The position numbers and the translations under genes were made by a program. Shown here piece by piece: positions 115 through 36,848 of a DNA stretch of 36,848 bases. Under the pieces are notes generated by a model that was given only the letters and a program-made list of their open reading frames with translations, searched no databases and was not told the origin of the DNA. This DNA comes from Chiloscyllium plagiosum (taxonomy: Eukaryota), in the NCBI RefSeq assembly GCF_004010195.1, contig NC_057754.1, positions 5,662,278 through 5,699,125 of the forward strand, given 5' to 3'. Every line of letters begins with the position of its first letter. Positions within the stretch are counted from its first letter, which is position 1.

Positions 115-390
115 AGTTAAAAATCGCACAACACCAGGTTATAATCCAACCGGTTTATTTGGAAGCACAAGCTTTCGGAGCGCCGCTCCTTCACCAGGCA
201 GCTGTGTGATTTCTAACATTCCTGATGAAGGGCTCCCGTCGATTTTTCCTGCTCCTCGGATGCTGCCTGGCCTGCTGTGCTTTTCTAGCACCGCTCTAAT
301 CTTGACTCTGATCTCCAGCGTCTGCAGTACCCACTGGCTTGATTTTTAACTTTGTCCACCCCAGTCCAACACCGGGCTCCTCCACATCCT
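115..390. mobile_element. Short inverted PLE terminal-repeat insertion (family A), with a family-B piece nested at 218-339
   Basis: 115-200 on the minus strand reads CCTGGTGAAGGAGCGGCGCTCCGAAAGCTTGTGCTTCCAAATAAAC (hammerhead-like core plus AATAAA). The same family continues on plus (TGATTTTTAACTTTGTCCACCCCAGTCCAACACC). Flanks are GCCTATTCAGCAG (102-114) and GCCTAGTCGGCAG (391-403). Confidence 0.75.
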
Positions 391-403
391 GCCTAGTCGG
401 CAG

Positions 404-500
404 TAGTTTTCCAAACCCGCACCCTCTACAACTGAGAAGGATGAGGTTGGCAGAACATCAGAGGTTCACCTCCAAGTCCTATACCATCCATCTCCAAGCA
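404..500 (+). mobile_element. Degenerate LINE 3' fragment, same family as 17190-17820 and 29410-29785
   Basis: TTTCCAAAC...AGAAGGA...GTTCACCTCCAAG resembles 29481-29565. Confidence 0.45.
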
Positions 501-719
501 CTTGCTCGTTTACTTTAGTTGGCATTTCACCCTTAGGTCGACTGCTTGGTGATATTTTCCTCACCAATGTATATCATCACAAGGGCCCAAGGACGTTGGA
601 GCAGAGTCCAGCCTTCCTGTCCAGTACTTACGCACAGTTTTTAGCTCCACCTTCTGATGAGAATCATTACCTGGCTGTTTCAAAGCACTGGCATCGATGA
701 GAGGGCTCCCGGGACAGAA

Positions 720-884
720 TAAAAGCAAATTACTGCGGATGCTGGAATCTGAAACCAAAAGAGAAAACCCTGGAAAGTCTCAAAGCTGCTTTGACAAAGG
801 GTCAGTTAGAGTCGAAACGTCAGCTCTTTTCTCTCCTTACAGATGCCGCCAGACCTGCTGAGATTTTCCAGCATTTTCTCTTTT
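720..884. mobile_element. Short inverted PLE terminal-repeat insertion (family C)
   Basis: Inverted arms at about 757-782 and 859-885. Degenerate hammerhead TTGACAAAGGGTCAGTTAGAGTCGAAACGTCAGC at 791-824. Flanking direct repeat GCTC(C/A)CGGGACAGAA at 705-719 and 885-899. Confidence 0.75.
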
Positions 885-1159
885 GCTCACGGGACAGAAG
901 GTGGGAGGATGGGCTCAAGAAACGTGTCAGCCATGATGGAATAGCAGACCAGATCTGATGGGCCATATGGCCTAACTCTCCTCCTGTATCTAGTAATGGC
1001 AGATCAGGCCTGTAATGTTCTTAAAATTTATTGTGTCACCAGCTAGGACAAGTATTTCTTGCTCGACCCAAGTTATCTTTAAGGAGGTGATGAAGAGCTA
1101 TCTTCTTGAACTGTTGAAGTCTGTTGGCAGTGTTTAAAAGCCATCTTGGGGTAAAATTA

Positions 1160-1975
1160 AGATCCCCGCAGTGCAGATAAGGCCAAACGTCGACGCCACT
1201 CTCACCAAGACTCCCTCACCCTGAAGCTACTGCCTTTCCCATGGATATCCCACCTAGAATGCACACACCCTAACCTGCACATCCCTGGGCACTATGGGAC
1301 AGTTTAGCATGGCCAATCCACCCTAACCTGCACATCCCTGGGCACTATGGGACAATTTAGCATGGCCAATCCACCCTAACCTGCACTACCCTGGGCACTA
1401 TGGGACAGTTTAGCANNNNNNNNNNNNNNNNNNNNNNNNNNNNNNNNNNNNNNNNNNNNNNNNNNNNNNNNNNNNNNNNNNNNNNNNNNNNNNNNNNNNN
1501 NNNNNNNNNNNNNNNNNNNNNNNNNNNNNNNNNNNNNNNNNNNNNNNNNNNNNNNNNNNNNNNNNNNNNNNNNNNNNNNNNNNNNNNNNNNNNNNNNNNN
1601 NNNNNNNNNNNNNNNNNNNNNNNNNNNNNNNNNNGGACAATTTAGCACGGCCAATCCACCCTAACCTGCACATCCCTGGACACTATGGGACAATTTAGCA
1701 CGGCCAATCCACCCTAACCTGCACATCCCTGGACACTATGGGACAATTTAGCACGGCCAATCCACCCTAACCTGCACATCCATGGGCACTTTGGGACAAT
1801 TTAGCACGGCCAATCCACTCCAACCTGCACGTCCTTGGACACTATGGGACAATTTAGCACGGCCAACCCACCCTAACCTGCACATCCCTGGGCACTATGG
1901 GCAAATTTAGCATGGCCAATCCACCCTAACCTGCACATCCCTGGGCACTATGGGCAAATTTAGCACTGCCAATCC
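1160..1975 (-). repeat. HE1 SINE 3' part with tandem 53-bp minisatellite, spanning the gap at 1416-1634
   Basis: Units CACCCTAACCTGCACATCCCTGGGCACTATGGGACAATTTAGCACGGCCAATC, the reverse complement of the 4.2-8.7 kb unit. Confidence 0.9.
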
Positions 1976-1989
1976 ACATCCACATCACA

Positions 1990-2589: not shown

Positions 2590-2780
2590 GTCATTTCCCC
2601 AGGGTCGGGGAAGTCTGGAATTAGAGACCGTGGGTTTTAAGAGGGGGAAAGATTTAAAAGGGACCTGAAAGGCAGCTTTTTCACACAGAGGGTGATGCAT
2701 AAGTGGAACATAGGTAGAGATGGGTACAGTTACAATAGTTAGAAGACTTCTGGACAGGTACGTGGATAGAAAAGATTTAG
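2590..2780 (+). mobile_element. CR1/HER1 LINE 3' fragment
   Basis: GGAAAGATTTAAAAGGGACCTG...TTTTTCACACAGAGGGTG, as in the other CR1 copies in this window. Confidence 0.8.
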
Positions 2781-2784
2781 AAAA

Positions 2785-3735
2785 TAAAACTCAGAACAGT
2801 ACAGCACAGGACTAGATCCGTTGGCCGGTGATGTTGTGCTGAACATGACCCCACATTAAACTATTCCCTCCTGCCTGTCCTTGGTCCATCTCCCATCGTC
2901 CCTGGCATATTCATGTGTTTATCTCAAGTCCCTTAAACGCCCCTATCACATCTGCCTCCACCACCACCCCAGGCAGTGTGTTCCACACTCCTACCACTCT
3001 CAGTTTAAAAAAACTTGCCCCTCACATCTCCTTTGAACTTTCTCCCTCTCACGTTTAAATGCATGCCTCCTAGTATTAGACGTTTCACCTCTGGGTAAAA
3101 GCTTCTGACCGTCAACCCTATATCTGTGCATCTCACAATTTTGTAGCCTTCTATCAAGTCTCCCCTCAGCCTCCAGAGAAAACAACCTGAGTTTTTCCAG
3201 CCTCTCCTTACAGCTCCTACCCTCTAATCCAGGCAGCATCCTGGGATACCTCTCCTGCACCCTCTCCCAAGCCCCCACATCCTTCCTGTAATGGGGCGAC
3301 CAGAACTGAACGCAATACTCTAAGTGTGGCCTAACCAAAAGTCTTGTAGAGCTGCAACATGACATCCTGACTCTTGTATGTTGAGAGTGTGTTGCTGGAA
3401 AAGCACAGCAGGTCAGGCAGCATCCGAGGAGCAGGAAAATCGACGTTTCGGGCCAGAGCCCTCCAATAAAGGTAAGTGTGCCTTACACCTTCTTTACCGC
3501 CCTGTCGACTTGTGTAGCCACACTCAGGGAGCTATGGACTTGAACCTCAAGATCCCTCTGTACATCAAAGCTGTTCAGGGTCCTGTCTTTAACTGTACAC
3601 TTTTCCTGAGCATTTAATCTCCCAAAATGCAGCACCTCACACTTACCCGGATTAAACTCCATCTGCCATTTCTCCGCCCTTATTTGCAACTGATCTATGT
3701 CCCAGTGTATCCTTTAACAACTTCTACACGAACGA
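2785..3735 (-). mobile_element. CR1/HER1 LINE 3' region (RT C-terminus plus tail), interrupted by a PLE piece at 3378-3465
   Basis: ORF remnants AEKWQMEFNPGKCEVLHFGR and LVRPHLEYCVQFWSPHYRKDV...ERVQ. Confidence 0.92.
3378..3465 (-). mobile_element. PLE family-B terminal-repeat fragment with a truncated hammerhead
   Basis: Minus strand reads GGGCTCTGGCCCGAAACGTCGATTTTCCTGCTCCTCGGATGCTGCCTGACCTGCTGTGC. The CUGANGA part is missing. Confidence 0.8.
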
Positions 3736-4061: not shown

Positions 4062-7000
4062 CGCGCTGTGGCTCAGCCGTTAGCACCACTTTCTCAGGGC
4101 GCCAGGAACCTGGGTTCGATCCCAGCTTCAGACGACTGTCCGGTGGGGAGTTTGCATGTTCTCCCCATGTCTGCATGAACTTTCCACCCACAGTCCAAAG
4201 CTGTGCAGACGAGGGGGGATTGGCCGTGCTAAATTGTCCCATCGTGCCCAGGGATGTGCAGGTTAGGGTGGATTGGCCGTGCTACATTGTCCCATAGTGC
4301 CCAGGAATGTGCAGGTTATGGTGGATAGGCCGTGCTAAATTGTCCCATAGTGCCCAGGAATGTGCAGGTTGAGGGGGATTGGCCGTGCTATATTGTCCCA
4401 TAGTGCCCAGGGATGTGCAGGTTATGGTGGATAGGCCATGCTAAATTGTCGCATAGTGCCAAGGAATGTGCAGGTTGGGGTGGATTGGCCGTGCAACATT
4501 GTCCCATAGTGCCCAGGGATGTGCAGGTTATGGTGGATAGGCCGTGCTAAATTGTCCCATAGTGCCCAGGGATGTGCAGGTTAGAGTGGATTGGCCATGC
4601 AAAAGTGTCCCATAGTGCCCAGGAACGTGCAGGTTAGGGGGGATTGGCCGTGCTATATTGTCCCATAGTGCCCAGGAATGTGCAGGTTATGGTGGATAGG
4701 CCGTGCTACATTGTCCCATAGTGCCCAGGAATGTGCAGGTTATGGTGGATAGGCCGTGCTAAATTGTCTCATAGTGCCCAGGGATGTGCAGGTTGAGGGG
4801 GATTGGCCGTGCTAAATTGTCCCATAGTGCCCAGGAATGTGCAGGTTGAGGGGGATTGGCCGTGCTATATTGTCCCATAGTGCCCAGGGATGTGCAGGTT
4901 AGGGTGGATTGGCCGTGCTACATTGTCCCATAGTGTCCAGGGATGTGCACGTTAGGGTGGATTGGCCGTGCTGAATTGTCCCATAGTGCCCAGCGATGTG
5001 CAGGTTAGGGTGGATTGGCCGCGTTAAATTGTCCCATAGTGTCCAGGGATGTGCAGGTTGGAGTGGATTGGCCGTGCTAAATTGTCCCATAGTGCCCAGG
5101 GATGTGTAGGTTAGGGTGGATTGGCCATGCTAAATTGTCCCATAGTGTCCAGGGATGTGTAGGTTAGGGTGGATTGGCCGTGCTAAATTGTCCCATAGTG
5201 CCCAGGAATGTGCAGGTTGGGGTGGATTGGCCGTGCAAAATTGTCCCATAGTGCCCAGGAATGTGTAGGTTAGGGTGGATTGGCCGTGCCAAATTTTCCC
5301 ACAGTGCCCAGGAATGTGCAGGTTGGGGTGGATTGGCCGTGCTACATTGTCCCATAGTGCCCAGGAATGTGCAGGTTATGGTGGATAGGCCGTGCTAAAT
5401 TGTCCCATAGTGCCCAGGAATGTGCAGGTGAGGGTGGATTGGCCATACTAAATTGTCCCATAGTGCCCAGGGATGTGCAGGTTAGGGTGGATTGGCCGTG
5501 CTAAATTGTCCCATAGTGCCCAGGGATGTGCAGGTTAGGGTGGATTGGCCGTGCTAAATTGTCCCATAGTGCCCAGGGATGTGCAGGTTAGGGTGGATTG
5601 GCCGTGCTAAATTGTCCCATAGTGCCCAGGGATGTGCAGGTTAGGGTGGATTGGCCGTGCTAAATTGTCCCATAGTGCCCAGGGATGTGCAGGTTAGGGT
5701 GGATTGGCCGTGCTAAATTGTCCCATAGTGCCCAGGGATGTGCAGGTTAGGGTGGATTGGCCGTGCTAAATTGTCCCATAGTGCCCAGGGATGTACAGGT
5801 TAGGGTGGATTGGCCGTGCTAAATTGTCCCATAGTGCCCAGGGATGTGCAGGTTAGGGTGGATTGGCCGTGCTAAATTGTCCCATAGTGCCCAGGGATGT
5901 GCAGGTTAGGGTGGATTGGCCGTGCTAAATTGTCCCATAGTGCCCAGGGATGTGCAGGTTAGGGTGGATTGGCCGTGCTAAATTGTCCCATAGTGCCCAG
6001 GGATGTGCAGGTTAGGGTGGATTGGCCGTGCTAAATTGTCCCAGAGTGCCCAGGGATGTGGAGGTTAGGGTGGATTGGCCGTGCTAAATTACCCCATAGT
6101 GCCCAGGGATGTGCAGGTTAGGGTGGATTGGCCGTGCTAAATTGTCCCATAGTGCCCAGGGATGTGCAGGTTAGGGTGGATTGGCCGTGCTAAATTGTCC
6201 CATAGTGCCCAGGGATGTGCAGGTTAGGGTGGATTGGCCGTGCTAAATTGTCCCATAGTGCCCAGGGATGTGCAGGTTAGGGTGGATTGGCCGTGCTAAA
6301 TTGTCCCATAGTGCCCAGGGATGTGCAGGTTAGGGTGGATTGGCCGTGCTAAATTGTCCCATAGTGCCCAGGGATGTGCAGGTTAGGGTGGATTGGCCGT
6401 GCTAAATTGTCCCATAGTGCCCAGGGATGTGCAGGTTAGGGTGGATTGGCCGTGCTAAATTGTCCCATAGTGCCCAGGGATGTGCAGGTTAGGGTGGATT
6501 GGCCGTGCTAAATTGTCCCATAGTGCCCAGGGATGTGCAGGTTAGGGTGGATTGGCCGTGCTAAATTGTCCCATAGTGCCCAGGGATGTGCAGGTTAGGG
6601 TGGATTGGCCGTGCTAAATTGTCCCATAGTGCCCAGGGATGTGCAGGTTAGGGTGGATTGGCCGTGCTAAATTGTCCCATAGTGCCCAGGGATGTGCAGG
6701 TTAGGGTGGATTGGCCGTGCTAAATTGTCCCATAGTGCCCAGGGACGTGCAGGTTAGGGTGGATTGGCCGTGCTAAATTGTCCCATAGTGCCCAGGGACG
6801 TGCAGGTTAGGGTGGATTGGCCGTGCTAAATTGTCCCATAGTGCCCAGGGACGTGCAGGTTAGGGTGGATTGGCCGTGCTAAATTGTCCCATAGTGCCCA
6901 GGGACGTGCAGGTTAGGGTGGATTGGCCGTGCTAAATTGTCCCATAGTGCCCAGGGACGTGCAGGTTAGGGTGGATTGGCCGTGCTAAATTGTCCCATAG

Positions 7001-8795
7001 TGCCCAGGGACGTGCAGGTTAGGGTGGATTGGCCGTGCTAAATTGTCCCATAGTGCCCAGGGACGTGCAGGTTAGGGTGGATTGGCCGTGCTAAATTGTC
7101 CCATAGTGCCCAGGGACGTGCAGGTTAGGGTGGATTGGCCGTGCTAAATTGTCCCATAGTGCCCAGGGACGTGCAGGTTAGGGTGGATTGGCCGTGCTAA
7201 ATTGTCCCATAGTGCCCAGGGACGTGCAGGTTAGGGTGGATTGGCCGTGCTAAATTGTCCCATAGTGCCCAGGGACGTGCAGGTTAGGGTGGATTGGCCG
7301 TGCTAAATTGTCCCATAGTGCCCAGGGACGTGCAGGTTAGGGTGGATTGGCCGTGCTAAATTGTCCCATAGTGCCCAGGGACGTGCAGGTTAGGGTGGAT
7401 TGGCCGTGCTAAATTGTCCCATAGTGCCCAGGGACGTGCAGGTTAGGGTGGATTGGCCGTGCTAAATTGTCCCATAGTGCCCAGGGATGTGCAGGTTAGG
7501 GTGGATTGGCCGTGCTAAATTGTCCCATAGTGCCCAGGGATGTGCAGGTTAGGGTGGATTGGCCGTGCTAAATTGTCCCATAGTGCCCAGGGATGTGCAG
7601 GTTAGGGTGGATTGGCCGTGCTAAATTGTCCCATAGTGCCCAGGGATGTGCAGGTTAGGGTGGATTGGCCGTGCTAAATTGTCCCATAGTGCCCAGGGAC
7701 GTGCAGGTTAGGGTGGATTGGCCGTGCTAAATTGTCCCATAGTGCCCAGGGATGTGCAGGTTAGGGTGGATTGGCCGTGCTAAATTGTCCCATAGTGCCC
7801 AGGGATGTGCAGGTTAGGGTGGATTGGCCGTGCTAAATTGTCCCATAGTGCCCAGGGATGTGCAGGTTAGGGTGGATTGGCCGTGCTAAATTGTCCCATA
7901 GTGCCCAGGGATGTGCAGGTTAGGGTGGATTGGCCGTGCTAAATTGTCCCATAGTGCCCAGGGATGTGCAGGTTAGGGTGGATTGGCCGTGCTAAATTGT
8001 CCCATAGTGCCCAGGGATGTGCAGGTTAGGGTGGATTGGCCGTGCTAAATTGTCCCATAGTGCCCAGGGATGTGCAGGTTAGGGTGGATTGGCCGTGCTA
8101 AATTGTCCCATAGTGCCCAGGGATGTGCAGGTTAGGGTGGATTGGCCGTGCTAAATTGTCCCATAGTGCCCAGGGATGTGCAGGTTAGGGTGGATTGGCC
8201 GTGCTAAATTGTCCCATAGTGCCCAGGGATGTGCAGGTTAGGGTGGATTGGCCGTGCTAAATTGTCCCATAGTGCCCAGGGATGTGCAGGTTAGGGTGGA
8301 TTGGCCGTGCTAAATTGTCCCATAGTGCCCAGGGATGTGCAGGTTAGGGTGGATTGGCCGTGCTAAATTGTCCCACCAGAGATGTGCAGGTTAGGGTGGA
8401 TTGGCCTTGCTATATTGTCCCATAGTGTCCAGGGATGTGCAGGTTAGGGTGGATTGGCCATGCTAAATTGTTTCATAGTGCCCAGGGATGTGCAGTTAGG
8501 GTGGANTTAGGGTGGATTGGCCTTGCTATATTGTCCCATAGTGTCCAGGGATGTGCAGGTTAGGGTGGATTGGCCATGCTAAATTGTTTCATAGTGCCCA
8601 GGGATGTGCAGGTTAGGGTGGATTGGCCATGCTAAATTGTCCCATAGTGCCCAGGGATGTGCAGGTTAGGGTGGATTGGCCGTGGGAAATGAAGGGTCAC
8701 AGCGATAGGATAGGATGGTGGGTCTGCTCATCGGAGGGTCAGTGTGGACTCGCTGGGCCGAATGGCCTATTTCCACACTGTCAGGATTCTATGGT
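4062..8795 (+). mobile_element. Single HE1 (tRNA-derived V-SINE) copy inflated by an internal minisatellite
   Basis: Head has A-box-like TGGCTCAGCCGTTAG and B-box GGTTCGATCCC (about 4113-4123), followed by GGAGTTTGCATGTTCTCCCC. The LINE-like tail GGGCCGAATGGCCTATTTCCACACTGTCAGGATTCTATG ends at about 8793. Confidence 0.88.
4200..8685 (+). repeat. 53-bp tandem minisatellite, about 84 units
   Basis: Unit GATGTGCAGGTTAGGGTGGATTGGCCGTGCTAAATTGTCCCATAGTGCCCAGG; period 53 (e.g. 5631 to 5684). Confidence 0.98.
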
Positions 8796-9859: not shown

Positions 9860-10163
9860 GATTATAGAGATTCACCGCCGATATACCTGGAAACAGGCCC
9901 GTCGATCTACACTGACCCACCGAAGAGTATCCCACCCAAACCCATTCCCCAACCCTATTAGCCTATTTTTAGCCCTGACTATTGCACCGAGCCTACACGT
10001 TCCTGGACACTGTGGGGTAATTTAGCACGGCCAATCCACCCTAACCTGCACAACCCTGGGCACTATGAGACAATTTAGCACGGCCAATCCACCCTAACCT
10101 GCACATCCCTGGGCACTATGGGACAATTTAGCACGGCCAATCCACCCTAACCTGCACATCCCT
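9860..10163 (-). repeat. HE1 3' tail plus 53-bp array running into the gap at 10164-11069
   Basis: GGAAACAGGCCC...CCCATTCCCC, then about 3 units of the 53-mer. Confidence 0.85.
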
Positions 10164-11189: not shown

Positions 11190-11880
11190 TGTTCGTGTCA
11201 TTGGGCCAGCAGTTGGCAAACAGAATATAATGTGGGAAATGGTTGTATGGTTTGGAAGGACAAAGTGATTTTAAAATGGACAAAAAGCTGCAACACAAAG
11301 GGACCTGGCTGTGGGGGGGGAGGGGACTTGTACACGAAACACAGCAAGCTCACGCGCAGGGGCAGCAGGGAATCGGGAAGGGTAATGGAATGTAGGCCCT
11401 TATTTCAAGGGGGTTGGAGGGGAAGAGTGGGGAAGTCTTGCAGCAACTAGACAAGGTGCTGGTGAGACCACCATCTAGAGCACTGGGCCCTCTTCTTTAA
11501 GGAGAGAACTCATTTCACTGGAGGCCATTCAGAGACGGTTCGTTAGGATGGTCCCCGATACGGAGGGACTGTCTCATGAGCAAAGGCTAAACCGGGGTTG
11601 GCACTCTGGGGTTTAGAAGGATGGGAGGTCATCTCTCATTGAGGGGCTTGACAGGGTCAATGCTGAGAGGGTGTTTCCCCCCTCATGGGGAGAGTCTGGG
11701 ACCAGAGGGTGCAGTCTCAGAATAAAGGGGGGGGTGCAATTTCAGACTGAGATAGACAGATGCTTGATCAACCGGGACGTCAAGGGTTATGGGGAAAGGG
11801 CAGCAAAGTGAGGAATTTCGGATCAGCCATCGGATGGCTGGAAGGGCCGAACGGCCTGGTCCTGTTCCTATTTCTTACGG
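11190..11880 (+). mobile_element. Degenerate CR1 LINE 3' region
   Basis: Translates WASSWQTEYNVG; also CAAGGTGCTGGTGAGACCAC and the tail GAAGGGCCGAACGGCCT...TCCTATTTCTTA. Confidence 0.8.
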
Positions 11881-12744: not shown

Positions 12745-13133
12745 TAGAACCCTGCAGTGTGGAAGTGCATTCAGCCCATCAAATCCACACTGGCCCTCCA
12801 AAGAGTATCCCACCCAGAGTCACCCCATTCCCATTAATCATCGCTAGCCCACCTCAACGACACATCCCTGGGCACTATGGGACAATTTAGCACGGCCAAT
12901 CCACCCTAACCTGCACATCCCTGGGCACTATGGGACAATTTAGCACGGCCAATCCACCCTAACCTGCACACCTTCGGACTGTGGGAGGAAACCGGATCAC
13001 CCAGGGGAAACCCCACACAGACACGGGGGGAGAATGTGCAAACACCACACTGACAGTCGGCCGAGGGTGGGATCGAACCCGTGACCCTAGCGTTGTAAGG
13101 CAGTAGTGCCAACCACTGAGCCACCGTGCCGAG
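12745..13133 (-). mobile_element. Near full-length HE1 SINE with about 2 copies of the 53-bp unit
   Basis: Minus strand reads GGCACGGTGGCTCAGTGGTTGGCACT (A box)...GGGTTCGATCCC (B box)...GGTTTCCTCCCACAGTCCGAAGGTGTGCAGGTTAGGGTGGATTGGCC. Confidence 0.9.
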
Positions 13134-13274
13134 CATGGCCGAGTTGGGCTGAAGGGTCCGTCTGCGTGCTGCACAACCCGATGATCTGTCTGGGTGACCG
13201 TGTTCCTGCCCGCCTTACCCAGCACCTGGAGTATGAGGTGATCCATGAGCCTTGTGGCAGTGGCACATTGCACC

Positions 13275-13664: not shown

Positions 13665-14383
13665 GATGTGGAGGAGACGGTGTTGGGACTGGGGTGGACA
13701 AGGTCAGAAATCACATGACACCAGGTTATAGTCCGACCGGTGTATTTGAAATCACAAGCTTTCAGAGCGCTGCCCCTTCATCGGAAGGAGTGAGAGAGAA
13801 GCACACACTCACAGAGTTTGTAGGCAGGGAGATTGAATCATACACAGGTGGTGTGAGGGGTGCGTCGACAGGCTGAATAACAAGTCTCTGCAGGTGATCG
13901 AGAGCGTCGGATGGTGTGAGGAAAGTGTAAAGAGAGATAATTACAAAAACCGATTCAAGCTAAGACGGTGCTGGAGAGAAACCAAACGGCTGGAATGGGC
14001 GTGAAAGGTGTAAGAGTAGCACACCTAGAGTCTCGCCAAAGTGACGAATAGTCCAAAACCGTACAAACTAATTAAGGCCAAGAGGTCATAGCAAGTTACC
14101 GAGGTGATGGTGCAAAAACAGGAGGGTAAGGAAGATCTTACAGACACATAACAGTGTGGTATGGAACATGGCTATCGGTTTCTGCTTGGCGACTGTGCGT
14201 GGTGTATTCCGAAGGCCGCCTTGGAGGATGCTTACCAGAATCTCCCGGACCCTGGAGGTGTTCCCCGGGCTGGGAGGGAACATCCCTGCCTGGTGGTTGT
14301 TGTGCTGTGTCCGTTCATCCATCCGCTGCCGTAGCGCCTGTTGGGTCTCGCCAATATAGCGTGCCTCAGGGCATCCCTGCTTT
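13665..14383 (-). mobile_element. PLE family-A 3' end: GIY-YIG endonuclease remnant plus terminal repeat
   Basis: Minus strand from about 14379 translates QGCPEARYIGETQQALRQRM, then with frameshifts MNGHS...RQGCSLP and VSILQGGLR...VAKQKPIAMFHT. The terminal repeat contains CCGATGAAGGGGCAGCGCTCTGAAAGCTTGTG...AAATACAC. Confidence 0.88.
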
Positions 14384-14449: not shown

Positions 14450-14900
14450 GAGATCACAATTGAACTCTATGTGACCTCTGCGGATGACCATTAAACTCTA
14501 ACTGCCCTCCGTTAATCACAATTAAACTCTAATTGCCCTCCTTTGGTCACAATTAAACTCTAATTACCCTCCATTAATCACAATTAAACTCTCGTTGCCC
14601 TTCATTAATCACAATTAAACTCTAACTGCCCTCCGTTAATCACAATTAAACTCTAATTGCCCTCCTTTGATCACAATTAAACTCTAACTGCCCTCCATTA
14701 ATCACAATTAAACTCTAATTGCCCTCCATTAATCACAATTAAACTCTAACTGCCCTCCGTTAATCACAATTAAAGTCTAATTGTCCTCCTTTGATCACAA
14801 TTAAACTCTCGTTGCCCTCCTTTGGTCAGTATTTAAGTTTAGTTGCCCTCTGTCAACCCAATTGCACTCTAATTGCCATCTCCCCCCACCCAGTTGATTA
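14450..14900 (+). repeat. 31-bp AT-rich minisatellite, about 12-14 units, with outlying units at about 13630 and 15670
   Basis: Unit ATCACAATTAAACTCTAATTGCCCTCCATTA. Confidence 0.95.
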
Positions 14901-16148: not shown

Positions 16149-16490
16149 TACAGAGTAAAGCTCCCTCCACACCGTCCCCCATCAAACACTCCCCAGGACA
16201 GGGACAGCACGGGGTTAGATACAGAGTAAAGCTCCCTCTACACTGTCCCTCATCAAACACTCCCTGGACAGGGACAGCACGGAGTTAGATACAGAGTAAA
16301 GCTCTCTCCACACCGTCCCCCATCAAACACTCCCCAGGACAGGAACAGCACAGGGTTAGGTACAGAGTAAAGCTCCCTCTACACCATCCCCCATCAAACA
16401 CTCCCCAGGACAGGAACAGCACAGGGTTAGATACAGAGTAAAGCTCCCTCTACACTGTCCCCCATCAAACACTCCCAGGACGGGGACAGA
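16149..16490 (+). repeat. 70-71 bp minisatellite, about 4.8 units
   Basis: Unit TACAGAGTAAAGCTCCCTCTACACTGTCCCCCATCAAACACTCCCCAGGACAGGGACAGCACGGGGTTAGA; unit starts at about 16150, 16221, 16291, 16362 and 16433. Confidence 0.95.
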
Positions 16491-17100: not shown

Positions 17101-17142
17101 CTGAAGTCATTATTCTCAACGTTACTCTGAGGGGCCTGTGGG
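17053..17142 (-). CDS. Candidate 90-nt exon (PQAPQSNVENNDFRKESVKENSERAWKLP)
   Basis: ctgctccccag|C CCA CAG...CCA AG|gtagcc; purine-rich and open; phase 2-2. An alternative acceptor at 17135 gives the same reading frame. Confidence 0.35.
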
Positions 17143-17189
17143 CTGGGGAGCAGTCCGGAGATGAACCTCCCCACAGTCTCCAACTTTGT

Positions 17190-20959: not shown

Positions 20960-21053
20960 CTGTCTGTCTCAAAAGAAATCTATCATTTTCTCTATTATCA
21001 TTCTTTGAGTAAAACTGAAAATGGAGTCCACTAACTTCCCATAATATGTTCGC

Positions 21054-21432
21054 AGGAGGTTGAGGGGTGACCTTCTAGAGGTTTATAAAATCATAAGGGG
21101 CGTGGATAGGGTGAACGGCTGGTGTCTTTCCCCTAGGGTGGGGGATTTCAAAACGAGGGGGGATTATTTTTAAGGTGAGAGAAGAGAGATCTAAAAACGA
21201 CTTGGGGGCAATTTGTTTACACAGAGGGTGGTCCGTGTGTGGAATGAGCTTCCTGAGGAAGTGGTGGATGTGGGGACAGTTACAACATTTAAAAGACATT
21301 TGGATAAGGACACAAATAGGAAAGGGATATGGGCCGGGGCAGGCAGGTGGGACGAGTTTAGTTTGGGATTATGGGTCGGCACGGACTGGTTGGGCCGAAG
21401 GGTCTGTTTCCGTGCTGTGTGACTCTATGACA
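21054..21432 (+). mobile_element. CR1/HER1 3' end
   Basis: Translates FTQRVVRVWNELPEEVVDVGTVTTFKRHLD; tail ends GACTCTATGAC. Confidence 0.92.
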
Positions 21433-23329: not shown

Positions 23330-24210
23330 TGAACAGGAGACCTGGCCTGGCACGGTCTGGAGACTGGGCCCAGTGCGATATGGATACTGCACTTAGTGCA
23401 GTCTAGAGACTGAGCCCTGTCTTTTCTGGAGATTGGGCCAGTGGCAATCTGGAGCCTGGGCCCGGTGCAGTCGGAAGCCTGGCCTGGTGCATGTTCAAAA
23501 CTCAGCCCAGTACGTTCTAGAGACAGAGTCAGGTGCAGTCTGAAGACAGGTTCTGATGCAGTCTAGGGAATAGGATCATTCCAGTCTGGAGACTGGGCTC
23601 AGGGTAGTCTGGAGACTGTCCCCTTTGGGGTCTGAAGACTCAACCAGGTGCTATCTGGAGTCTGGCCTGGGTGTATTCTGGAGGCAGGGTCTAGTGCCGC
23701 CGGGATACTGGGTCTGGTGCATTCAGGAGACTGGGCCTGGTATGGTCTGGAAAGTGGCCTTGGTGCGGTCTGGAGACTGGAATCGTCCAAGTCTGGAGGC
23801 TTAGCCTGCTGTGGTCTGGAGATTGGGCCACGTTCGGCCTGGAGACTGGGCACTGTGCAGTCGGGAGGATGGATTTGGTGTATTTCGGAGAATGGGCTCG
23901 GTGCAGTATGGAGACTGGATCTGGTGTGACTGTACATGAACACGGTCCGGTCTGGAGACTGGGCCTCGGGCTGACTGGAGACTGGTCCTAGTGCAGTCTG
24001 GAGCCTCCGAGCTGTTCGAGCTGGAGGCTGGGACCAATGAGGTCTGGGAACATGGCCTGGAGCAGTTCTGGAGACTTGGCCTTTTGTTGTCTGGAGACCT
24101 GGCCTGGCGCGGACTGGAGCCTGGGCCCGGAGTTATTTGAATACCCGGCCTGGTGCAGTCTGCAGATTGGGCCAGGTACAGTCTGGAGACTTGGCCTGGT
24201 GCAGTTATGG
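23330..24210 (+). repeat. Diverged 23-bp minisatellite, about 38 units
   Basis: Consensus TGGTGCAGTCTGGAGACTGGGCC. Confidence 0.92.
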
Positions 24211-24519: not shown

Positions 24520-27500
24520 TGTACAAAGACCTCAGTGGGTTTCTCTCTCAGTGTAGCACCATGTCATCTCCTCTGCCCTAAAACCTTTCAACCATGGACC
24601 GAAACATACTCCTTTCTCAGTGCCTGCCTACGGAACCAACGGATCACACAAGGACTCTGGACAAACTGCAGATCAACAAAATTTGCATTTGAACAAGCCA
24701 ACTAGTGAAGACTATAAATTCCAAACCTCCAGCAACGGCTCTCCTTCTGGATCCTCCGCTCCATACATGCAGCCATGCACTCGCACATAATCTCTCCATA
24801 GTCAACCATGCCTCAACTGAGGGACACACTCTCTCAGAACTGGAAAGGACGCCTGCTGGATTACATACTTAGAAGAATTCACGCAATTAACATAGACTTT
24901 TCTCCAACATATGAGACGACAAAAAGTGCAAGTACAACAAACCTTCATGTACCCACTAAATAAACAGCATTCCTCGAATATTCCAGAAGCTTCCCCTGGC
25001 CTCCAAAACTACTTGGCTGCCATCAGCCATGAGGCAATACCAACAATCATAACCATCATGATCGATGATGCATTTTTGGTTCCTGCAGCCCAACAGCCTA
25101 CAGCTCCGGCTGATCATTCTGTCTCTGTGACCACCGACCAGACAACAGTTGCTGCAAGTGCTGGCCAGAAATCCACAGCCATGACTGCTATGAGATCCGC
25201 TGTCTCTGAGACCAACGCAAGGCCCATTCGGAACAACATTTCCATCCCCTCTGTTGCCACGACCGCAGTCACTCCTGATCCCTGTGATATCACCAAGACT
25301 TCTGCCCCTTTGTGGCCACTACTGCTGCCACTTCTGTTGCCAACAACATCACCTACACTGCACATTTCGCCACACCACCCTCTACATAATCATTTACGCT
25401 ACGTGTTCCGCCCATTCTGCCCCACAGCTGTCAGTGCAGCAAGCACTTCCACTCCACAATGACGCCACTCACATGAACATCGCTGACACGCCCACAATGG
25501 ATCCCACAGTCACCACCTCCACCCCGGAAGCCTGGGATGAGCATCATTTCAATAAATGGCGTCACCGCAGTCCCTCCATGTTGCTGCCAACTCCAGTTAC
25601 AATCTCCACCCGCACTTCCAGATCCAGCCCTCAGCCAGTTCCTAGATCCCAGCCCTGCCGAGTTTTGACTATCCTTTCAGACATCCTGCTCACGGAACAT
25701 GAACGATCAGTCCTCAGCAAAGGCCTTACCTTCATCCCGTTCCGCTCCTGTGTAGAAAATTCAACATGTGCTGTGACATCGAACACTACATCCGCCGCCT
25801 CTGCTTCTGAGCTTATGTTCTCCATCAAGACTTCTGTACACCTTCTGCGGACCTCTTCGCCCACCTCCAACACATCGCATCCAGCTGCACACCCCGTGCC
25901 AGTCGTTTACACTCCCTCGAACTCTTAATTCCACCTGCAGCTGGGCATTGACCATCTCAACCTGTCCAACCCTCTCAGCAACTTCAACCTCTCACCCTCA
26001 CAACATACAGCACTCCACTCCCTCTGGTCCCACCCCAACCTCACCACAAAAGCTGCGGACATGCGGGGTGCAGTGGTAGTTTGGCGCACTGACTTCTGCA
26101 CCACTGAAGCCAAGCGCCAACTTGAAGAGACTTCGACCAACTACCACTTCGACCATGACCTGACCTCCCAACACCGAACCATCATCTCAGAGGATCTCCC
26201 ACTCTCAGCTTTCAAACTCATAGTTCAGCAACACCACAACACCTGGTTCTAACTCCTTCCTAAGATCTACAAGACTAAGGACACCAGGTCACAGCCTGTT
26301 TCTAACCAACCAAATTCATTTCCACGTACTTCGACAAAGTCTTATGCATTCTGTTCCATTAACATCCCACAAACATTCGGGAAATCACTGACGCATGCCA
26401 ACTCCTCCAAGACTTCCATTTCCCTGGGACACAATGTCTCATGTTCACGGTGGACACCCAATCACTATACACGTCTATCTGCCACGATCAAAGCCTCCAA
26501 GCCCTCTGTTTCTTCCTCACCCGACGTCCCCACCAGTACCCTTCCACTGACATTATAAACGATTTTGCTGAACTGGTCCTCATCCTCAACATTTTTTCCA
26601 TTGAATCCTCTCACTTCCTCTCGATGAAAGTGGTACCCATAGGCACCCTCATGTTGCCCAGCTATGCCTACATCTTTATCGGTTTCGCGGAATAGTCTAC
26701 CTTCCACAGTTATACTGTCACCACTCCCCACCTTTTCCTCTGCAAAATTGATGACTGCATCGACGCCACGCGCAGGTTGAGCAGTTCATCAACTTCACTA
26801 ATTCATTCTCCCCCAACCTTCAATTCAACTGGGCCATCTCAGACACATCCCTCCACTTTCCGGACCTCTCCATCTCTATCAACAGTGACTTACTTAACAT
26901 TGACATTTTCTACAAACACGCTGACTCCGACAGCTAACTCACTACACCACCACCCACCCTGCCTCCTGCAAAAATGCTAGCCGGTATTCCCAATTCCTCC
27001 ATCTCTGCAACATGTGTTCCCAGGACGAGCAGTTCCATCACAGAATATACCAGAAGGCCTCATTCATTCAAGACCGCAATTTCCATCCCCACATATTTGA
27101 TTATGCTCTCCAAAGCACCACATCCATATCTCTCTCTACCGTCCTCAAACCCAACCCTTCCAAGTGCAACAAGGACAGAACACACACACCCCACCCCGAT
27201 CCTCAACTTCCATCTCTCAACCTCCATAAACNNNNNNNNNNNNNNNNNNNNNNNNNNNNNNNNNNNNNNNNNNNNNNNNNNNNNNNNNNNNNNNNNNNNN
27301 NNNNNNNNNNNNNNNNNNNNNNNNNNNNNNNNNNNNNNNNNNNNNNNNNNNNNNNNNNNNNNNNNNNNNNNNNNNNNNNNNNNNNNNNNNNNNNNNNNNN
27401 NNNNNNNNNNNNNNNNNNNNNNNNNNNNNNNNNNNNNNNNNNNNNNNNNNNNNNNNNNNNNNNNNNNNNNNNNNNNNNNNNNNNNNNNNNNNNNNNNNNN

Positions 27501-27920
27501 NNNNNNNNNNNNNNNNNNNNNNNNNNNNNNNNNNNNNNNNNNNNNNNNNNNNNNNNNNNNNNNNNNNNNNNNNNNNNNNNNNNNNNNNNNNNNNNNNNNN
27601 NNNNNNNNNNNNNNNNNNNNNNNNNNNNNNNNNNNNNNNNNNNNNNNNNNNNNNNNNNNNNNNNNNNNNNNNNNNNNNNNNNNNNNNNNNNNNNNNNNNN
27701 NNNNNNNNNNNNNNNNNNNNNNNNNNNNNNNNNNNNNNNNNNNNNNNNNNNNNNNNNNNNNNNNNNNNNNNNNNNNNNNNNNNNNNNNNNNNNNNNNNNN
27801 NNNNNNNNNNNNNNNNNNNNNNNNNNNNNNNNNNNNNNNNNNNNNNNNNNNNNNNNNNNNNNNNNATGTTGATTTTCCTGTTACTCGGATGCTGCCTGAC
27901 CTGCTGTGCTTTTCCACCTA
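24520..27920 (+). mobile_element. Decayed near-full-length Penelope-like retroelement (family B); RT pseudogene with the endonuclease region probably in the gap
   Basis: Frameshifted motifs LTEHERSVLSKGLTFIP, TKAADMRGAVVVW (KPADKGG), FTVDTQSLYTSICHD, KVVPIGTLMLPSYAYIFIG (GvaMG..PS.A) and LCKIDDCI (YIDD). The terminal repeat GATTTTCCTGTTACTCGGATGCTGCCTGACCTGCTGTGC follows the gap. Confidence 0.9.
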
Positions 27921-27959
27921 GTTTTCTACCCAATTCAAAAAAAAATGCTGTTGATCCAG

Positions 27960-28560
27960 TTCTACATCATTCTCCTGATCTCTCCTATACATTTAATCTC
28001 TAGAAATCCTTATTTCTTTTCAGTGTATTGTGTTCCACAGCCTTATGTGGGAGAGACATTACCAGCTTCACCAGTCTCTGTTTGCAGATACTTAGTCTCA
28101 CCTCAATGTTGAGTGGCCGGCCTGTATTTAATACTGTGGTTTCCGACATCCCAGTCCAGGGAATTATCATTCCTGCTTCCAATCTGTCTCGTCCTGACAG
28201 AGTTTTATATGTTTCACTGAGACCCCCACCCATTTTCGTCAACCCCAAGGAATACAGTTCCATTCGACCCAAACTCTGCTCCCACAACAAGCCTGTCATT
28301 CGAGAGATCTGTCTGGTTGTCCTTCGCTGCACTCCCTCAATATCATGATTGTCCTTTATTGGTTTAGCAGGCCCAAACTGCACCAGCTCTGCGCAATTTT
28401 CAGATAAGGTCTCACCAAGGCTCCGTACAGATGCAGTAAGACATCCTTAGTCCTGGATTCAAAACCATTTGAAATGAAGATCAACACCCCATTTCTCTTC
28501 CTAACTGCTTTCTGGCCCTGCCATTTTGTTTTCTGAGACTCGTGTACAGGGAGATCCAGA
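27960..28560 (-). mobile_element. Old CR1 LINE 3' region
   Basis: Translates KDVLLHLYGALVRPYL and IEGVQRRTTRQISRMTGL...LSETYKTLSGRDR. Confidence 0.88.
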
Positions 28561-28969: not shown

Positions 28970-29265
28970 AGGAACTCGATTAACAAACACATCATTTTGA
29001 ACTCCATCTGCCACCCTCTGAGAAAAAGAAAAGAAAATGACACCGCAAACGCACGAAGTGACATCAAGACGAGGAAATGACATCACCAACCCAAGGCAAC
29101 CTGAACTCATAAATGGTTGGAGGGACATAACACCAGCTCTTCACCGGAGGCTCACTGATGATATAACCTAGAATGGTGATGAAACGTCTGAAAATGAACC
29201 TTCCTGGTGAGCGAGCAAACTTATATCCAGAACCTCAACCTGAGCTCCAAATCTTCTCACAACTA
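28970..29265 (+). mobile_element. PLE family-D 3' terminal fragment
   Basis: Carries the hammerhead at 29152-29191. The family assignment is inferred from that motif and from recall of a common shark repeat. Confidence 0.65.
29152..29191 (+). ncRNA. Minimal type I hammerhead ribozyme motif with a complete core
   Basis: UCA-CUGAUGA-U-AUAACC-UAGAAU-GGUGAU-GAAAC-GUC-UGA. Stem I is UCA/UGA, stem II pairs at 5 of 6 positions, and palindromic ACGU replaces stem III. Confidence 0.75.
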
Positions 29266-33774: not shown

Positions 33775-34372
33775 TTATACATGCCCAGCAATGTGGAAAC
33801 TGGACTTGTAGCCCACCAAGCCCACACTGACCCTCCAAATAGCTGGATTAGTATGGTGCTAGAAAAGGACTGCAGGTCAGTCAGCATCTGAGGAGCAGTA
33901 AAATTAAAGTTTCGGGCAAAAGTCCTTAATCAGGAATCAACCAGTGTTCGTGATGACGGGCTTTTGCCCAACACTTCGATTTTCCTACTCCTTGGACGCT
34001 TTCTGACCAGTTGTGCATTTACATCGCCACTTTAATCTCGACTCTAATGTCCAGCATCTGCAGTAACAACTTCTGCCTCCAAATAGCTTGCCACCAGGCA
34101 CACCCATACGTTACCCCGGGAACTCTACATTTCCCAAGGTTAATTCACATCACCTGCCCATCACAAGATGCTGCAACGCAATTTAAAAAGACCATTGCAC
34201 TGAAACTGCGCATTTTTGGTCTGTGGGAGGAAATCCAAGCACCGACAGGAAAACCACGTAGACACAGGAAGTATATAAGTCCCACACAGACAATCACCCA
34301 AGAGTGGAACTGAATCCAGGCCCTTGGTGCTTGGAGCCCACAGCGCGATCCACTGAGCCACCGTGCCACTCC
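33775..34372 (-). mobile_element. Old HE1 SINE interrupted by a PLE insertion
   Basis: Minus-strand head GGCACGGTGGCTCAGTGGATCGC...GGATTCAGTTCC; the tail resumes at 33775-33844. Confidence 0.8.
33845..34075. mobile_element. Head-to-head twin PLE family-B terminal-repeat insertion
   Basis: Minus copy at about 33845-33937 and plus copy at about 33946-34075, each starting at a decayed hammerhead. Perfect flanking repeat CCTCCAAATAGCT at 33832-33844 and 34076-34088. Confidence 0.82.
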
Positions 34373-34634
34373 AGTGACCAGCTCAGTGTGACTGCATTCT
34401 CCCATTTTCTCTGGAAACTTCACATCGTTTCAGATGATGTCGAATCCCAGTGGGGTACCTCCGACATAATCTGCTTTTCCCACAAACGAGAGATCATTTC
34501 CCCAAAATAAAACTCAGATTGACAGGGTGTAGGTAACCCATCTTCTGTATGTCTGCCCTCACTCCTTTCCCTCCTTCCGAAATCAAGTCATTCATTACTA
34601 GTGCCGCATGCAAGATAATTGCCAATCTACAATA

Positions 34635-34770
34635 AAACATATCACTGCAGATGCTGGAGATCTGAAACAAAAACAGTTCTGATGAAGAGCGCCCAGATTT
34701 GAAATGCTGACTATGTTTTCTTCCGACAAATGCTGCCAGACTCACTGAGTTTTAACAACAGTCTAATTCT
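34635..34770. mobile_element. Old inverted PLE family-C fragment
   Basis: ACTGCAGATGCTGGAGATCTGAAAC (compare 733-755), then CTGATGAAGAG...TTTGAAATGCTGAC...ATGCTGCCAGAC. Confidence 0.65.
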
Positions 34771-35579
34771 GTGCTTATATCATGCACAAAATCTGCCCTG
34801 CAATTTTGCTTTCTATATATAACATCCACCAGATTTGTTTTTCCTTGCTATTTTTAAACTCCAGGCAAACTGTTTGTGTGTAATCAGAGCACCGTTGTCT
34901 TTGGTGAGATTAATGGTAGATTAATGAGATGTTCCCTGACAACTTTCTTGATGCTATGATAGTCTCGTTGCCTCTTATTGGGTTCTTCTCAAGGGGAATG
35001 GTCAGATTCTCACTGGGTCTCCCCTTATACTGGCAAAGTGGAGAAGGACAATGATCTCCCTACAATGTTGTACATTCCTCCCGATGATTGAGCATGCTCT
35101 AACCCAGAAGGCAACTACAGAGCAGGCACACATGATCTGGTGTCATGGTCCCCAATTCTGTTTCTGGGGAAAGTGGAAGTCATGCCTGTGACCCTCCCCA
35201 CCTTGAAGGAGCCCCATGCCTCTGTCCACATTGCGACTTTGAGGAGGGCATTAATATCCCTCTGCCTGCCGCATGCAGGTTCAATATCAGTTGTTGTGCA
35301 GCGAAGCAGCGCAAGGACTTTGCTTGTCCCAGCACACTTTGGGCTTTCAAAGATGGCACTGTTTCCCGGGATGCTGAATAATTACAGGCTCACCGGTGAG
35401 TGGTGGGGTTGCTCTTGGAATGGAGTATAGTATGAGTTGGGGCAAATCCAACGTGATTCTCACTGTGACGGTTGGAACACCAATTAATGTTGAGTGTTTG
35501 ATGAAATCCCCTTAGTCTCACGGTGGGAATCTCCCTGCAAACTTAACAGAACTGGCACCTCCCATAAAAAAGATTAATT

Positions 35580-36440
35580 CATAAGAACATTAGGAATAGG
35601 ACCACGCTTGATACTGCTCCACCATTCAATAAGGCCATGGCGGATCTTTTAATTGAATCAGCTCCATTTCCCCGCCCTCTCCTCATTACCCTTATTTCCT
35701 TCACTATTCTAAAATCTGCGTTCGTTTACAATCAGCGAACCAGCATAGACTACTTCAAGAATCAAGGTAAACCACAGATTCAGGTTGGGATGTTCCCTCT
35801 CAACTGAGTCCTGAATCTGCGCCCGCTCATTTTGAAGTTATTCCACTTAGTTATACTTTCCCCCAACAGTGCACTCTACCAATTGTAATCCACAATTCCC
35901 CTGCTTCTATTTTATCTATTCCCTTCATAATTTTACCTTTCTATAAAATCTTCATTCATTCTTTTAAATTCCAATGAGAATAGTCCCAGCCAACTTGATC
36001 TCACCTCATTGTTCAACATTCTCGACTCTAGAATCAACAAAGCAAAAATTGTCTGCACCCACTACCATGCCTGTGCACTCATTCTGAAGTAAGGGAACCA
36101 ATACTGTAAACAGTAATCCGGGTGCGGCCTCTCCAAAACTGTATAGAACTACAACCTCCCTGTTTGTTAACTGCTGTATAGAACTACAACCTCCCTGTTT
36201 GTTAACTGCATCCGAAAAGGAATAAAGAAGAATATTCAAGTTGTCTTCCGAATTTCTGCAAACCAACGTTGTGTGCCCAAAGACCAGCCACCTTCCTTTG
36301 CACAACAGCATGCTGCATTTTCTTCCTCGTTTAACAGCCATGTTTACAGTTATTCCGAAAAAAATTGATAACCTAATATTTGCCAACATTGTCCTCCGTC
36401 TGCAAGACCTCTACCCACTCATTTAAACTATTTATATCTC
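35580..36440 (-). mobile_element. Old CR1 LINE 3' region
   Basis: Tail CATAAGAACATTAGGAATAGGA...CTGCTCCACCATTCAAT; AAGGGAACCAATACTGTAAACAGTAATCC is the reverse complement of a YCLQYWFP-like motif. Confidence 0.75.
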
Positions 36441-36519
36441 ACTGCAGACGTTCAGCGACCTCTACATATTTTGCTCTACAACTCAGTTTCATCTGCAAAC
36501 TTTGTCACAGTCGGAATCA

Positions 36520-36755
36520 CCAGTATGTCCACAAGCTGACACGGGGAGAGGTCATTTTGGTGTTGGAGCTTAGCAATGAGTCAGGACAGGTGTCAGATCT
36601 CACGGTGGGAGAACACTTTGGTGACAATGACTAAAACTGCCTCACATTTACCATAACCTTGGAGAGACAAAGGAACAGTTGCCAAGGGAAGATATTTAAT
36701 CGGGGAAAAGGAAATTATGATGCTATCAGACTGGAATTGGGAAGAAAAGATTGGG
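36520..36755 (+). mobile_element. CR1 ORF2 AP-endonuclease fragment
   Basis: Translates QYVHKLTRGEVILVLELSNESGQVSDLTVGEHFGDND (the APE 'LDL..N...G.SDH' region). Confidence 0.85.
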
Positions 36756-36848
36756 GCTGGAGATGTGTTGCTGGAAAAGCGCAGCAGGTCAGGCAGCATC
36801 CAGGGAACAGGAGAATCGACGTTTCGGGCATAAGCCCTTCTTCAGGAA
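36756..36848 (-). mobile_element. Young PLE family-B terminal repeat, cut by the window edge
   Basis: Close match to 3378-3465 and 27870-27918. Confidence 0.85.
36814..36848 (-). ncRNA. Minimal hammerhead ribozyme motif with a complete core
   Basis: UUC-CUGAAGA-A-GGGC-UUAU-GCCC-GAAAC-GUC-GAUU, with a perfect 4-bp stem II. Confidence 0.8.

What the first reader, a model, noticed from the sequence alone, without database searches (positions are those of the whole stretch)
161..36848. About ten minimal hammerhead-ribozyme motifs from about four Penelope-like families
Seen: the pattern CUGANGA-N-[stem II]-GAAA-(CGUC or GCUH) recurs, complete or decayed, at 165-197(-), 222-240(+), 791-824(+), 3440-3462(-), 13752-13784(-), 29152-29191(+), 33905-33935(-), 33950-33980(+), 34679-34711(+) and 36814-36848(-). 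The four families have different stem II sequences (GGAGC/GCUCC, GGGC/GCCC, GGGUC/GAGUC with one mismatch, AUAACC/GGUGAU) around a shared core, which amounts to covariation. All have one extra nucleotide after A9. In the better-preserved copies a palindromic ACGU or AGCU replaces helix III. Established: PLE terminal repeats encode minimal hammerheads, reported to cleave as dimers. Inference: roughly one motif per 4 kb here suggests a very large, mostly unannotated ribozyme population in this genome.
Basis: partly seen in the sequence, partly recalled or inferred. Interest (0 to 1): 0.72.

Follow-up and report, generated by a model that had tools for sequence, protein, structure and literature searches.

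The report
Shark Penelope hammerhead insertion scars
These motifs are copies of the small self-cutting RNA fold already known from Penelope-like jumping genes, mostly broken leftovers of short insertions (3 of the 10 are intact, about 160,000 genome-wide), and their 5' ends pile up just upstream of the ribozyme rather than at its cut site, which likely means they were copied from uncut transcripts that begin there.

Summary
Real, and of a known kind: minimal type-I hammerheads in the pseudo-LTRs of Penelope-like elements (Cervera and De la Pena 2014). All ten sites are element fragments, but only 791, 29155 and 36845 keep core, stem II, palindrome and cleavage triplet; 791 is a U3-A8 compensated family, not decay. 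Genome-wide (3.56 Gb, shark-like by inference) two patterns give 165,482 exact matches against 62 controls. A 1.36 Mb sample gives one fragment per 2.8 kb and one intact motif per 20 kb. Seven families covary in helices I and II; six lie downstream of a GIY-YIG-type endonuclease match or peptide. Neighbouring copies are head-to-head (103 pairs, tail on one arm in most), not tandem, so the 'ribozyme population' is mostly dead insertion scars. The one fresh point: in families A, B and C 5' ends cluster at the ribozyme's 5' edge, about 30 nt after a TATA-like box, often with a G before, and not at the cut site. That suggests run-off copying of capped, uncut transcripts; family D does not show it. 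The scan noted this class before on other shark DNA (57 notes, 18+ genomes), the 5'-end clustering and added G included.

The parts
112..198 (-). Family B pLTR fragment (stem II GGAGC/GCUCC, AGCU palindrome); hammerhead at 165-197 with one core substitution
218..335 (+). Family A fragment starting exactly 4 nt before C3; 3' half of stem II and GAAA deleted; carries the tail
340..388 (+). Family B tail fragment, likely the other arm of the inverted pair with 112-198
   Evidence: pairing is inference
718..763 (-). Decayed inverted arm (tail side) next to the family F copy
787..882 (+). Family F fragment; hammerhead 787-825 with U3-A8 compensated core, stem II with one mismatch, ACGU palindrome, GUC triplet
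3383..3465 (-). Family A fragment 5'-truncated inside the hammerhead (no CUGANGA)
13665..13784 (-). Family B fragment with tail; hammerhead 13752-13784 with one core substitution
25641..27200 (+). Decayed PLE reverse-transcriptase ORF (stops and frameshifts), Neptune-like by relatives
   Evidence: tblastn of full-length homologues E 7e-56; 22,732 first-look candidates genome-wide
27868..27916 (+).
28972..29259 (+). Family D1 (Penelope/Poseidon-like) pLTR fragment; hammerhead 29152-29191 with intact core and helix I UCA/UGA
33843..33937 (-). Family A, short arm of a head-to-head pair, decayed hammerhead
33941..34071 (+). Family A, tail-bearing arm of the same head-to-head pair, decayed hammerhead
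34631..34676 (-). Inverted tail-side arm of a family C/E pair
34674..34753 (+). Family C/E fragment; core letters intact at 34679-34711, stem II decayed
36748..36848 (-). Family A2 fragment; the one fully canonical minimal hammerhead of the window (36814-36848)

Best explanation
The motifs are minimal hammerheads carried in the pseudo-LTRs of several Penelope-like retrotransposon families, and most genomic copies are short, decaying insertion scars that were likely reverse-transcribed from uncut transcripts. Shown: each family's motif lies 3' of a GIY-YIG-type endonuclease (clear for A, B, D; few cases for C, E, F), is followed by a 33-40 nt optional tail, and in family A the tail runs on into the start of the next ORF, so in a partial tandem the hammerhead is at the head of the mRNA. 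Shown: 3' ends fall at two sites, head-to-head pairs carry the tail on one arm, and 5' ends of A, B and C pile up at the 5' edge of helix I, not at the scissile bond. Inferred: a TATA-like box about 30 nt upstream and an initiator-like site start transcription at the first base of helix I; the element's RT primes at the two internal sites about 90 and 125 nt downstream (as shown in vitro for the anole element), on both nicked strands, and runs off the capped 5' end; the two cDNAs join by microhomology or fold-back, giving solo or inverted 95-130 nt inserts with target duplications. Inferred: the fold is under selection in the source elements, likely as a slow, protein-assisted, dimer-dependent cutter acting on the mRNA leader or at a later step, while inserted copies are mostly inert passengers.
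For: Exact patterns 133,284 + 32,198 matches, reversed controls 53 + 9; family counts A 93,870, D 10,950, C/E 1,396, F 1,449, controls 0. Covariation: 8 of 11 pairs change on both sides, 92% of cells paired, slid controls at most 43%; B swaps the palindrome to AGCU; F has U3-A8 in 93 of the first 100 matches and no G8. Endonuclease match within 800 nt upstream: A 26 of 246, B 8 of 106, D 9 of 64, C 3 of 38, F 1 of 30, E 0 of 11; downstream control 1, 0, 0, 1, 0, 1. Relatives of the A ORF: 60 of 80 carry RVT_1, 18 of 80 GIY-YIG. Tail on exactly one arm in 57 of 62 A, 22 of 23 B, 13 of 16 C pairs. 5' ends per nt, peak vs 25 nt upstream vs cut site +-2: A 7.6 / 0.76 / 1.2; B 1.68 / 0.04 / 0.8; C 3.53 / 0.08 / 1.0. 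TATA-like element 30-32 nt before the peak in A, B, C/E and F (L287, read by eye). For subfamily A2, G precedes the start in 5,896 of 9,682 non-native cases; 3,668 cannot be fold-back, against about 1,160 expected. In 48 long A copies picked without looking at the motif (A1 and A2 scored), shared subfamily variants are 0 of 1,010 cells in the fold and 67 of 1,125 in the flank. Frangieh 2024 (PMC11167929, parts 1-2 read): uncleaved RNA is the dominant template, two internal start sites, both strands primed.
Against: No transcription start was measured. The promoter motifs were sought after the peak was seen, and family A's box is only TATA-like. Family D has a good TATA box but no peak: 24 of 35 D2 copies run 80 nt or more upstream; the RNA lay gave only 10 loose-ended reads at -22. 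The G is not dominant in C (4 G, 8 A, 2 T among non-C) or F, and where a target duplication could be read the G lay inside it in 4 of 5 copies (3 of 4 events), with further AT microhomology, so target preference is an alternative to a copied cap. The A peak is broad (-7 to +8). References for C mostly lack native upstream sequence, which inflates its cliff. Rare substitutions are also somewhat lower in the fold than in the flank (1.8% vs 3.2%, p 0.04), so purely neutral decay after insertion is not cleanly shown. Pfam found no significant GIY-YIG in our own fragments.
Confidence: 0.68

Rival explanations
1. Same elements, but 5' ends cluster for reasons other than a transcription start: RT stalls or jumps at the hammerhead fold, or the cDNA end anneals to an ATT-type nick in the target; the true template may be a cleaved and religated circle, as Cervera and De la Pena proposed.
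For: AT microhomology and G inside the target duplication at several junctions; palindromic fold-back junctions; no peak in family D; the anole endonuclease prefers ATT (PMC11167929).
Against: Family A has a second ATT right after the cut site, and only 6 of 238 ends lie within 2 nt of it; C, F and B peaks start on AG or CAC, not ATT; a stall would be expected on entering the fold from the 3' side, not on leaving it (general reasoning); the TATA-to-peak spacing is the same in four families with different sequences.
Confidence: 0.2
2. One reading: the genome holds a very large population of working ribozymes that cut host transcripts as tandem dimers.
For: About 155,000-175,000 intact motifs; the repeats are present in polyA reads on both strands; two copies can pair through the palindrome in cofolding of A2.
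Against: 3 of 10 window sites intact; partners are inverted, not tandem; the window pair folds as a -84.5 kcal/mol hairpin; min-HHRs cut poorly even as dimers and not as monomers (PMC4209133) and the anole one needs its protein (PMC11167929); cofolding gave the helix-III dimer as the minimum for only 1 of 5 copies.
Confidence: 0.07
3. The short copies are a self-propagating non-autonomous family (SINE-like or non-LTR retrozyme) with masters of about 130 nt.
For: Family C and F copies rarely have upstream element sequence; retrozymes derive from pLTRs (bioRxiv 10.64898/2026.07.22.740005, parts 1-2 read).
Against: No hammerhead-bearing tandem arrays in the window and few same-strand neighbours in the sample; every short type matches the pLTR of a long, endonuclease-linked subfamily; solo copies lack the upstream TATA-like box they would need.
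Confidence: 0.05

Closest known systems
Minimal hammerheads (min-HHR) of metazoan PLEs, Cervera and De la Pena 2014 (PMC4209133; parts 1-2 of 4 read, two supplement files searched)
   Same: Type I, no helix III, palindrome at 15.1-16.1, extra base after A9, G10.1-C11.1, short helix I, many families per genome, mostly single copies from truncated elements, pairs on opposite strands, and a U3-A8 variant (described there for Schistosoma Cercyon).
   Different: Scale: about 160,000 intact here against about 4,000 (coelacanth) and 9,000 (Xenopus), though with other descriptors. No shark was found in the supplement files searched. Stem II is short (4-6 bp). The paper did not examine 5'-end positions in the parts read.
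Poseidon element of the green anole (PAc), Frangieh et al. 2024 (PMC11167929; parts 1-2 of 4 read)
   Same: Hammerhead just upstream of two internal RT start sites that define the tail; both strands primed; uncleaved RNA is the template; protein-assisted cleavage. Our two 3'-end modes and one-arm tails fit this.
   Different: Most families here are Neptune-like (zinc-finger linker in A); only D looks Penelope/Poseidon-like. In A the ORF begins after the tail, not in stem II. A start-site cliff was not reported in the parts read.
EN+ PLE insertion structure: Arkhipova et al. 2013 (PMC3846280, passages), Craig et al. 2021 (PMC8557442, passages), Schostak et al. 2008 (PMC2377424, passages)
   Same: Partial tandems, inverted 5'-truncated copy, 30-40 bp tail on one end, 8-10 bp target duplications, promoter in the pLTR; a putative TATA plus Inr in a rotifer pLTR.
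   Different: Drosophila Penelope has a TATA-less internal promoter with an intron before the hammerhead; here a TATA-like box sits about 30 nt before helix I itself in five families.
Non-LTR retrozymes (Cervera and De la Pena 2020, search listing only; Li et al. 2026 preprint, parts 1-2 and passages read)
   Same: Type I hammerheads derived from pLTRs, present in the one chondrichthyan sampled.
   Different: Retrozymes are head-to-tail arrays of hammerhead-bearing units; these copies are solo or head-to-head.

Membership tests
PLE minimal hammerhead | Catalytic boxes CUGANGA and GAAA with UH triplet (or compensated U3-A8) | tested here: met
   All family majorities; 3 of 10 window copies fully
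PLE minimal hammerhead | Stem II with G10.1-C11.1 and one extra base after A9 | tested here: met
   50 of 54 sample motifs have the extra base although the scan did not require it; covariation
PLE minimal hammerhead | No helix III; palindrome at 15.1-16.1 | tested here: met
   ACGU or AGCU in all 10 representatives; departures are mostly CpG decay
PLE minimal hammerhead | Type I topology with short helix I | tested here: met
   3-4 bp helix I covaries between and within families, e.g. D1 UCA/UGA 10 and CCA/UGG 3 of 19
PLE minimal hammerhead | Self-cleavage as dimer or with protein help | not testable with these tools
   Bench assay needed; cofolding is inconclusive
Canonical hammerhead families in Rfam | Match to an Rfam hammerhead model | tested here: not met
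   No hammerhead family among 9 matches at E <= 10; expected for motifs without helix III (inference)
EN+ Penelope-like element | Single ORF with RT and C-terminal GIY-YIG, hammerhead 3' of it | tested here: met
   L050 ORF and its 80 relatives; endonuclease upstream of A, B, D and a few C, F copies; E only by eye. Pfam on our own fragments gave only RVT_1 at E 1.6e-5
EN+ Penelope-like element | Partial tandem: pLTR continues into the next ORF | tested here: met
   Family A at L070, L077, L118; not seen for B, C, D in the loci held
EN+ Penelope-like element | Inverted 5'-truncated copy and 30-40 bp tail on one end | tested here: met
   103 head-to-head pairs, tail on one arm in 92 of 101 A/B/C pairs
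EN+ Penelope-like element | Target-site duplication | tested here: met
   7-18 bp duplications in 13 of 39 solo A copies; the rest not resolved
Neptune vs Penelope/Poseidon clade | Zinc-finger linker between RT and EN (Neptune/Nematis) and RT phylogeny | tested here: inconclusive
   Cys-rich linker read in A and absent in D; no tree built because no named reference PLEs were held
Non-LTR retrozyme | Head-to-tail array of two or more hammerhead-bearing units | tested here: not met
   No such array in the window; 12 same-strand neighbours within 300 nt among 480 copies

The most novel reading that the evidence does not exclude
In these shark PLEs transcription starts on the first base of the hammerhead, so the ribozyme is the capped 5' tip of the element's mRNA. 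The million or so short copies are run-off cDNAs of that uncut leader, which makes the genome a fossil map of PLE start sites and argues that the ribozyme does not prepare the template; it would instead be a protein-triggered decapping or translation-to-transposition switch.
Probability: 0.4. Interest if true: 0.6.

Novelty: new member of a known kind. Interest (0 to 1): 0.33.

Why it matters
The class is published, so the catch itself is ordinary. Two things are useful. The copy number is about 20-40 times the highest genome counts in the 2014 paper, which gives a large natural alignment with compensated variants. And what the PLE hammerhead is for is still open (Craig 2021 passages call it unclear); end positions of hundreds of thousands of copies let one test whether cut or uncut RNA is the template, and they point to uncut RNA starting at the ribozyme's edge.

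Tried and rejected
Rfam scan: no hammerhead hit. Loose descriptor with two core mismatches: chance level. Pfam on window and locus fragments: no significant GIY-YIG; RVT_1 weak. A 3' splice site at the 5' edge of helix I, as in Drosophila Penelope, was considered and dropped: A and B have no AG there, and C copies keep it. The prediction that family D ends cluster 30 nt after its TATA box was not borne out in DNA and only weakly in reads. The look-up of sequencing runs: no RNA holder listed on record. Two single-cell polyA raw-read runs of a holder species that may not be this one were laid: X21 laid nothing, X20 laid 3,618 reads on both strands with loose ends at the same boundaries as the DNA copies (-4, +81, +90, +124 to +126; 6 of 179 sites shown) and no site where many molecules begin or end, so it is no test of a start site or of cleavage; the sense bias on family D fits internal oligo-dT priming. 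Cofolding gave the palindrome dimer as minimum for 1 of 5 copies. Family B rows misaligned in the first alignment and were left out of the pair count; they are in the hand-anchored table. Lunse et al. 2017 was not held; it is known here only through the review PMC6765202 (passages). Literature searches for a shark report or a start-site link: searches found none; subscription papers and preprint supplements are not covered, and one supplement file of PMC4209133 could not be searched.
Full report
Observation. The ten stretches are present and all are parts of dispersed repeats. A strict scan (both boxes, stem II of 4 bp or more with up to one mismatch) finds 3 in the window and 0 in 8 shuffles; looser scans fall to chance. 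With the full descriptor, U3-A8 allowed, 3 of 10 pass: 791, 29155 and 36845. Two have one core substitution, one lacks GAAA, one lacks CUGANGA and three are decayed. Rfam finds no hammerhead.

Scale. The genome is 3.56 Gb in 101,977 contigs; that it is a shark or relative is my inference from size and repeat content, and earlier scan notes say the same. Exact counts with reversed controls: family A 93,870 / 0; any core ending ACGU 133,284 / 53; ending AGCU 32,198 / 9; D 10,950 / 0; C/E 1,396 / 0; F 1,449 / 0. In 140 arbitrary 10 kb stretches (1,362,964 non-N bases) there are 480 family fragments and 70 intact motifs, 62 with helix I, reversed control 0. That scales to about 1.2 million fragments and 155,000-175,000 intact motifs. 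Cervera and De la Pena reported about 4,000 and 9,000 for coelacanth and Xenopus with another descriptor.

Structure. A scan of the first 580 kb that did not ask for them returned the extra base in 50 of 54 motifs and mostly CG or GC after GAAA. Across ten natural representatives helices I and II change sequence and keep pairing, and the palindrome is ACGU or AGCU. On 12 aligned sequences, family B left out for misalignment, 92% of cells pair, 8 of 11 pairs change on both sides, and slid controls reach at most 43%; the structure was drawn from these sequences, so the slide control leans in its favour. The site at 791 is a family whose core reads UUGACAA: 93 of the first 100 matches are U3-A8, 7 are C3-A8, none has G8. 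This is the compensated 3-8 pair described for Schistosoma elements.

Host elements. The window holds a decayed RT at 25641-27200 that ends in a family A segment. A relative with an open frame shows RT, a Cys-rich linker and a GIY-YIG-like motif directly followed by the A hammerhead; of its 80 longer homologues 60 carry RVT_1 and 18 GIY-YIG. Endonuclease matches lie within 800 nt upstream of 26 of 246 A, 8 of 106 B, 9 of 64 D, 3 of 38 C, 1 of 30 F and 0 of 11 E copies, against 3 downstream in all (these sets include loci picked by RT, so the fractions are not genome rates). In three loci the A tail continues into an ORF start. 3' ends are bimodal, about +90/+126 (A), +88/+120 (B), +98/+131 (C), +75/+112 (D). 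There are 103 head-to-head pairs, none tail-to-tail, and the tail is on one arm in 92 of 101 A, B and C pairs. Target duplications of 7-18 bp were readable in 13 of 39 solo copies. This is the published EN+ PLE insertion pattern and matches the two internal RT start sites and two-strand priming of the anole element.

Where copies begin. Anchoring on the 3' part, so that the hammerhead is not required, 114 of 238 A, 37 of 81 B and 53 of 112 C copies begin at the 5' edge of the motif; the density drops 10-fold or more just upstream and shows no peak at the scissile bond. A TATA-like element lies 30-32 nt before the peak in A, B and C/E, with an initiator-like site at -4 in A and C, and in F. For A2, a G precedes the start in 61% of non-native cases, and non-fold-back G is about three times the expectation; an added G at full-length L1 insertions is ascribed to a copied cap (PMC4038843, passages). 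Against: D has a TATA box but no peak, G is not dominant in C or F, and the G often lies inside the target duplication. RNA reads could not decide. I therefore hold the start-site reading as likely, not shown.

Function. Among 48 long A copies chosen by their flanks, subfamily-shared variants are absent from the fold (0 of 1,010 cells) and common beside it (67 of 1,125); rare variants are 1.8% and 3.2%. So active lineages kept the fold. Inserted copies mostly cannot form the tandem double hammerhead: the nearest partner is inverted and the window's pair folds as one hairpin. Published assays show no monomer activity, low dimer activity and protein dependence. The most likely picture is a ribozyme that matters in the element's own RNA and a genome full of its scars.

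Prior art. The class, its features and its abundance are in PMC4209133; searches for a shark report or a start-site link found none, within the library's limits. The scan's index holds 57 notes on this class in at least 18 genomes, some with the 5'-end clustering and added G; I had measured both before that look-up, and those notes are not independent support. Verdict: new members of a known kind, interest 0.33.

Noticed in passing
window 787-825 (+); genome-wide: Family F: about 1,450 exact copies with a compensated U3-A8 core; 7 of the first 100 read C3-A8, an unpaired intermediate that may be a minor subfamily.
   Followed up: partly
window 1266-1977, 4212-8684, 10019-10163, 12861-12970, 18381-18773: A 53-bp satellite (84 copies in the largest array) in both orientations; it looks like a tandem amplification of the 3' part of the dispersed repeat at about 12860-13210, probably a SINE (label recalled, not tested).
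   Followed up: no
window 25600-28300 and L047/L083 (same contig, about 28 kb away): The decayed PLE and its flanks are duplicated at 92-96% identity, a local segmental duplication.
   Followed up: partly
window about 2600-3480, 11200-11450, 18780-19150, 21050-21430, 28000-28450: Several 3' fragments of a LINE; the translations resemble CR1-type RT C-termini (label recalled). The family A copy at 3383-3465 is inserted in one.
   Followed up: no
window 16500-18150: G+C- and CpG-rich stretch that could be a promoter region; no host exon was identified in the window.
   Followed up: no
window 14453-14880, 16149-16493, 23356-24205: Further tandem repeats of 31, 71 and 23 bp.
   Followed up: no
L101, L112, L211, L277 and read joints: Some junctions are perfect fold-backs over a 3-4 nt loop at the 5' edge of helix I, as if the cDNA end primed on itself.
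   Followed up: partly
families A1 and A2 vs A3: The two largest subfamilies keep a U-U mismatch in helix I that A3 repairs; a weak helix I did not hinder spread.
   Followed up: no
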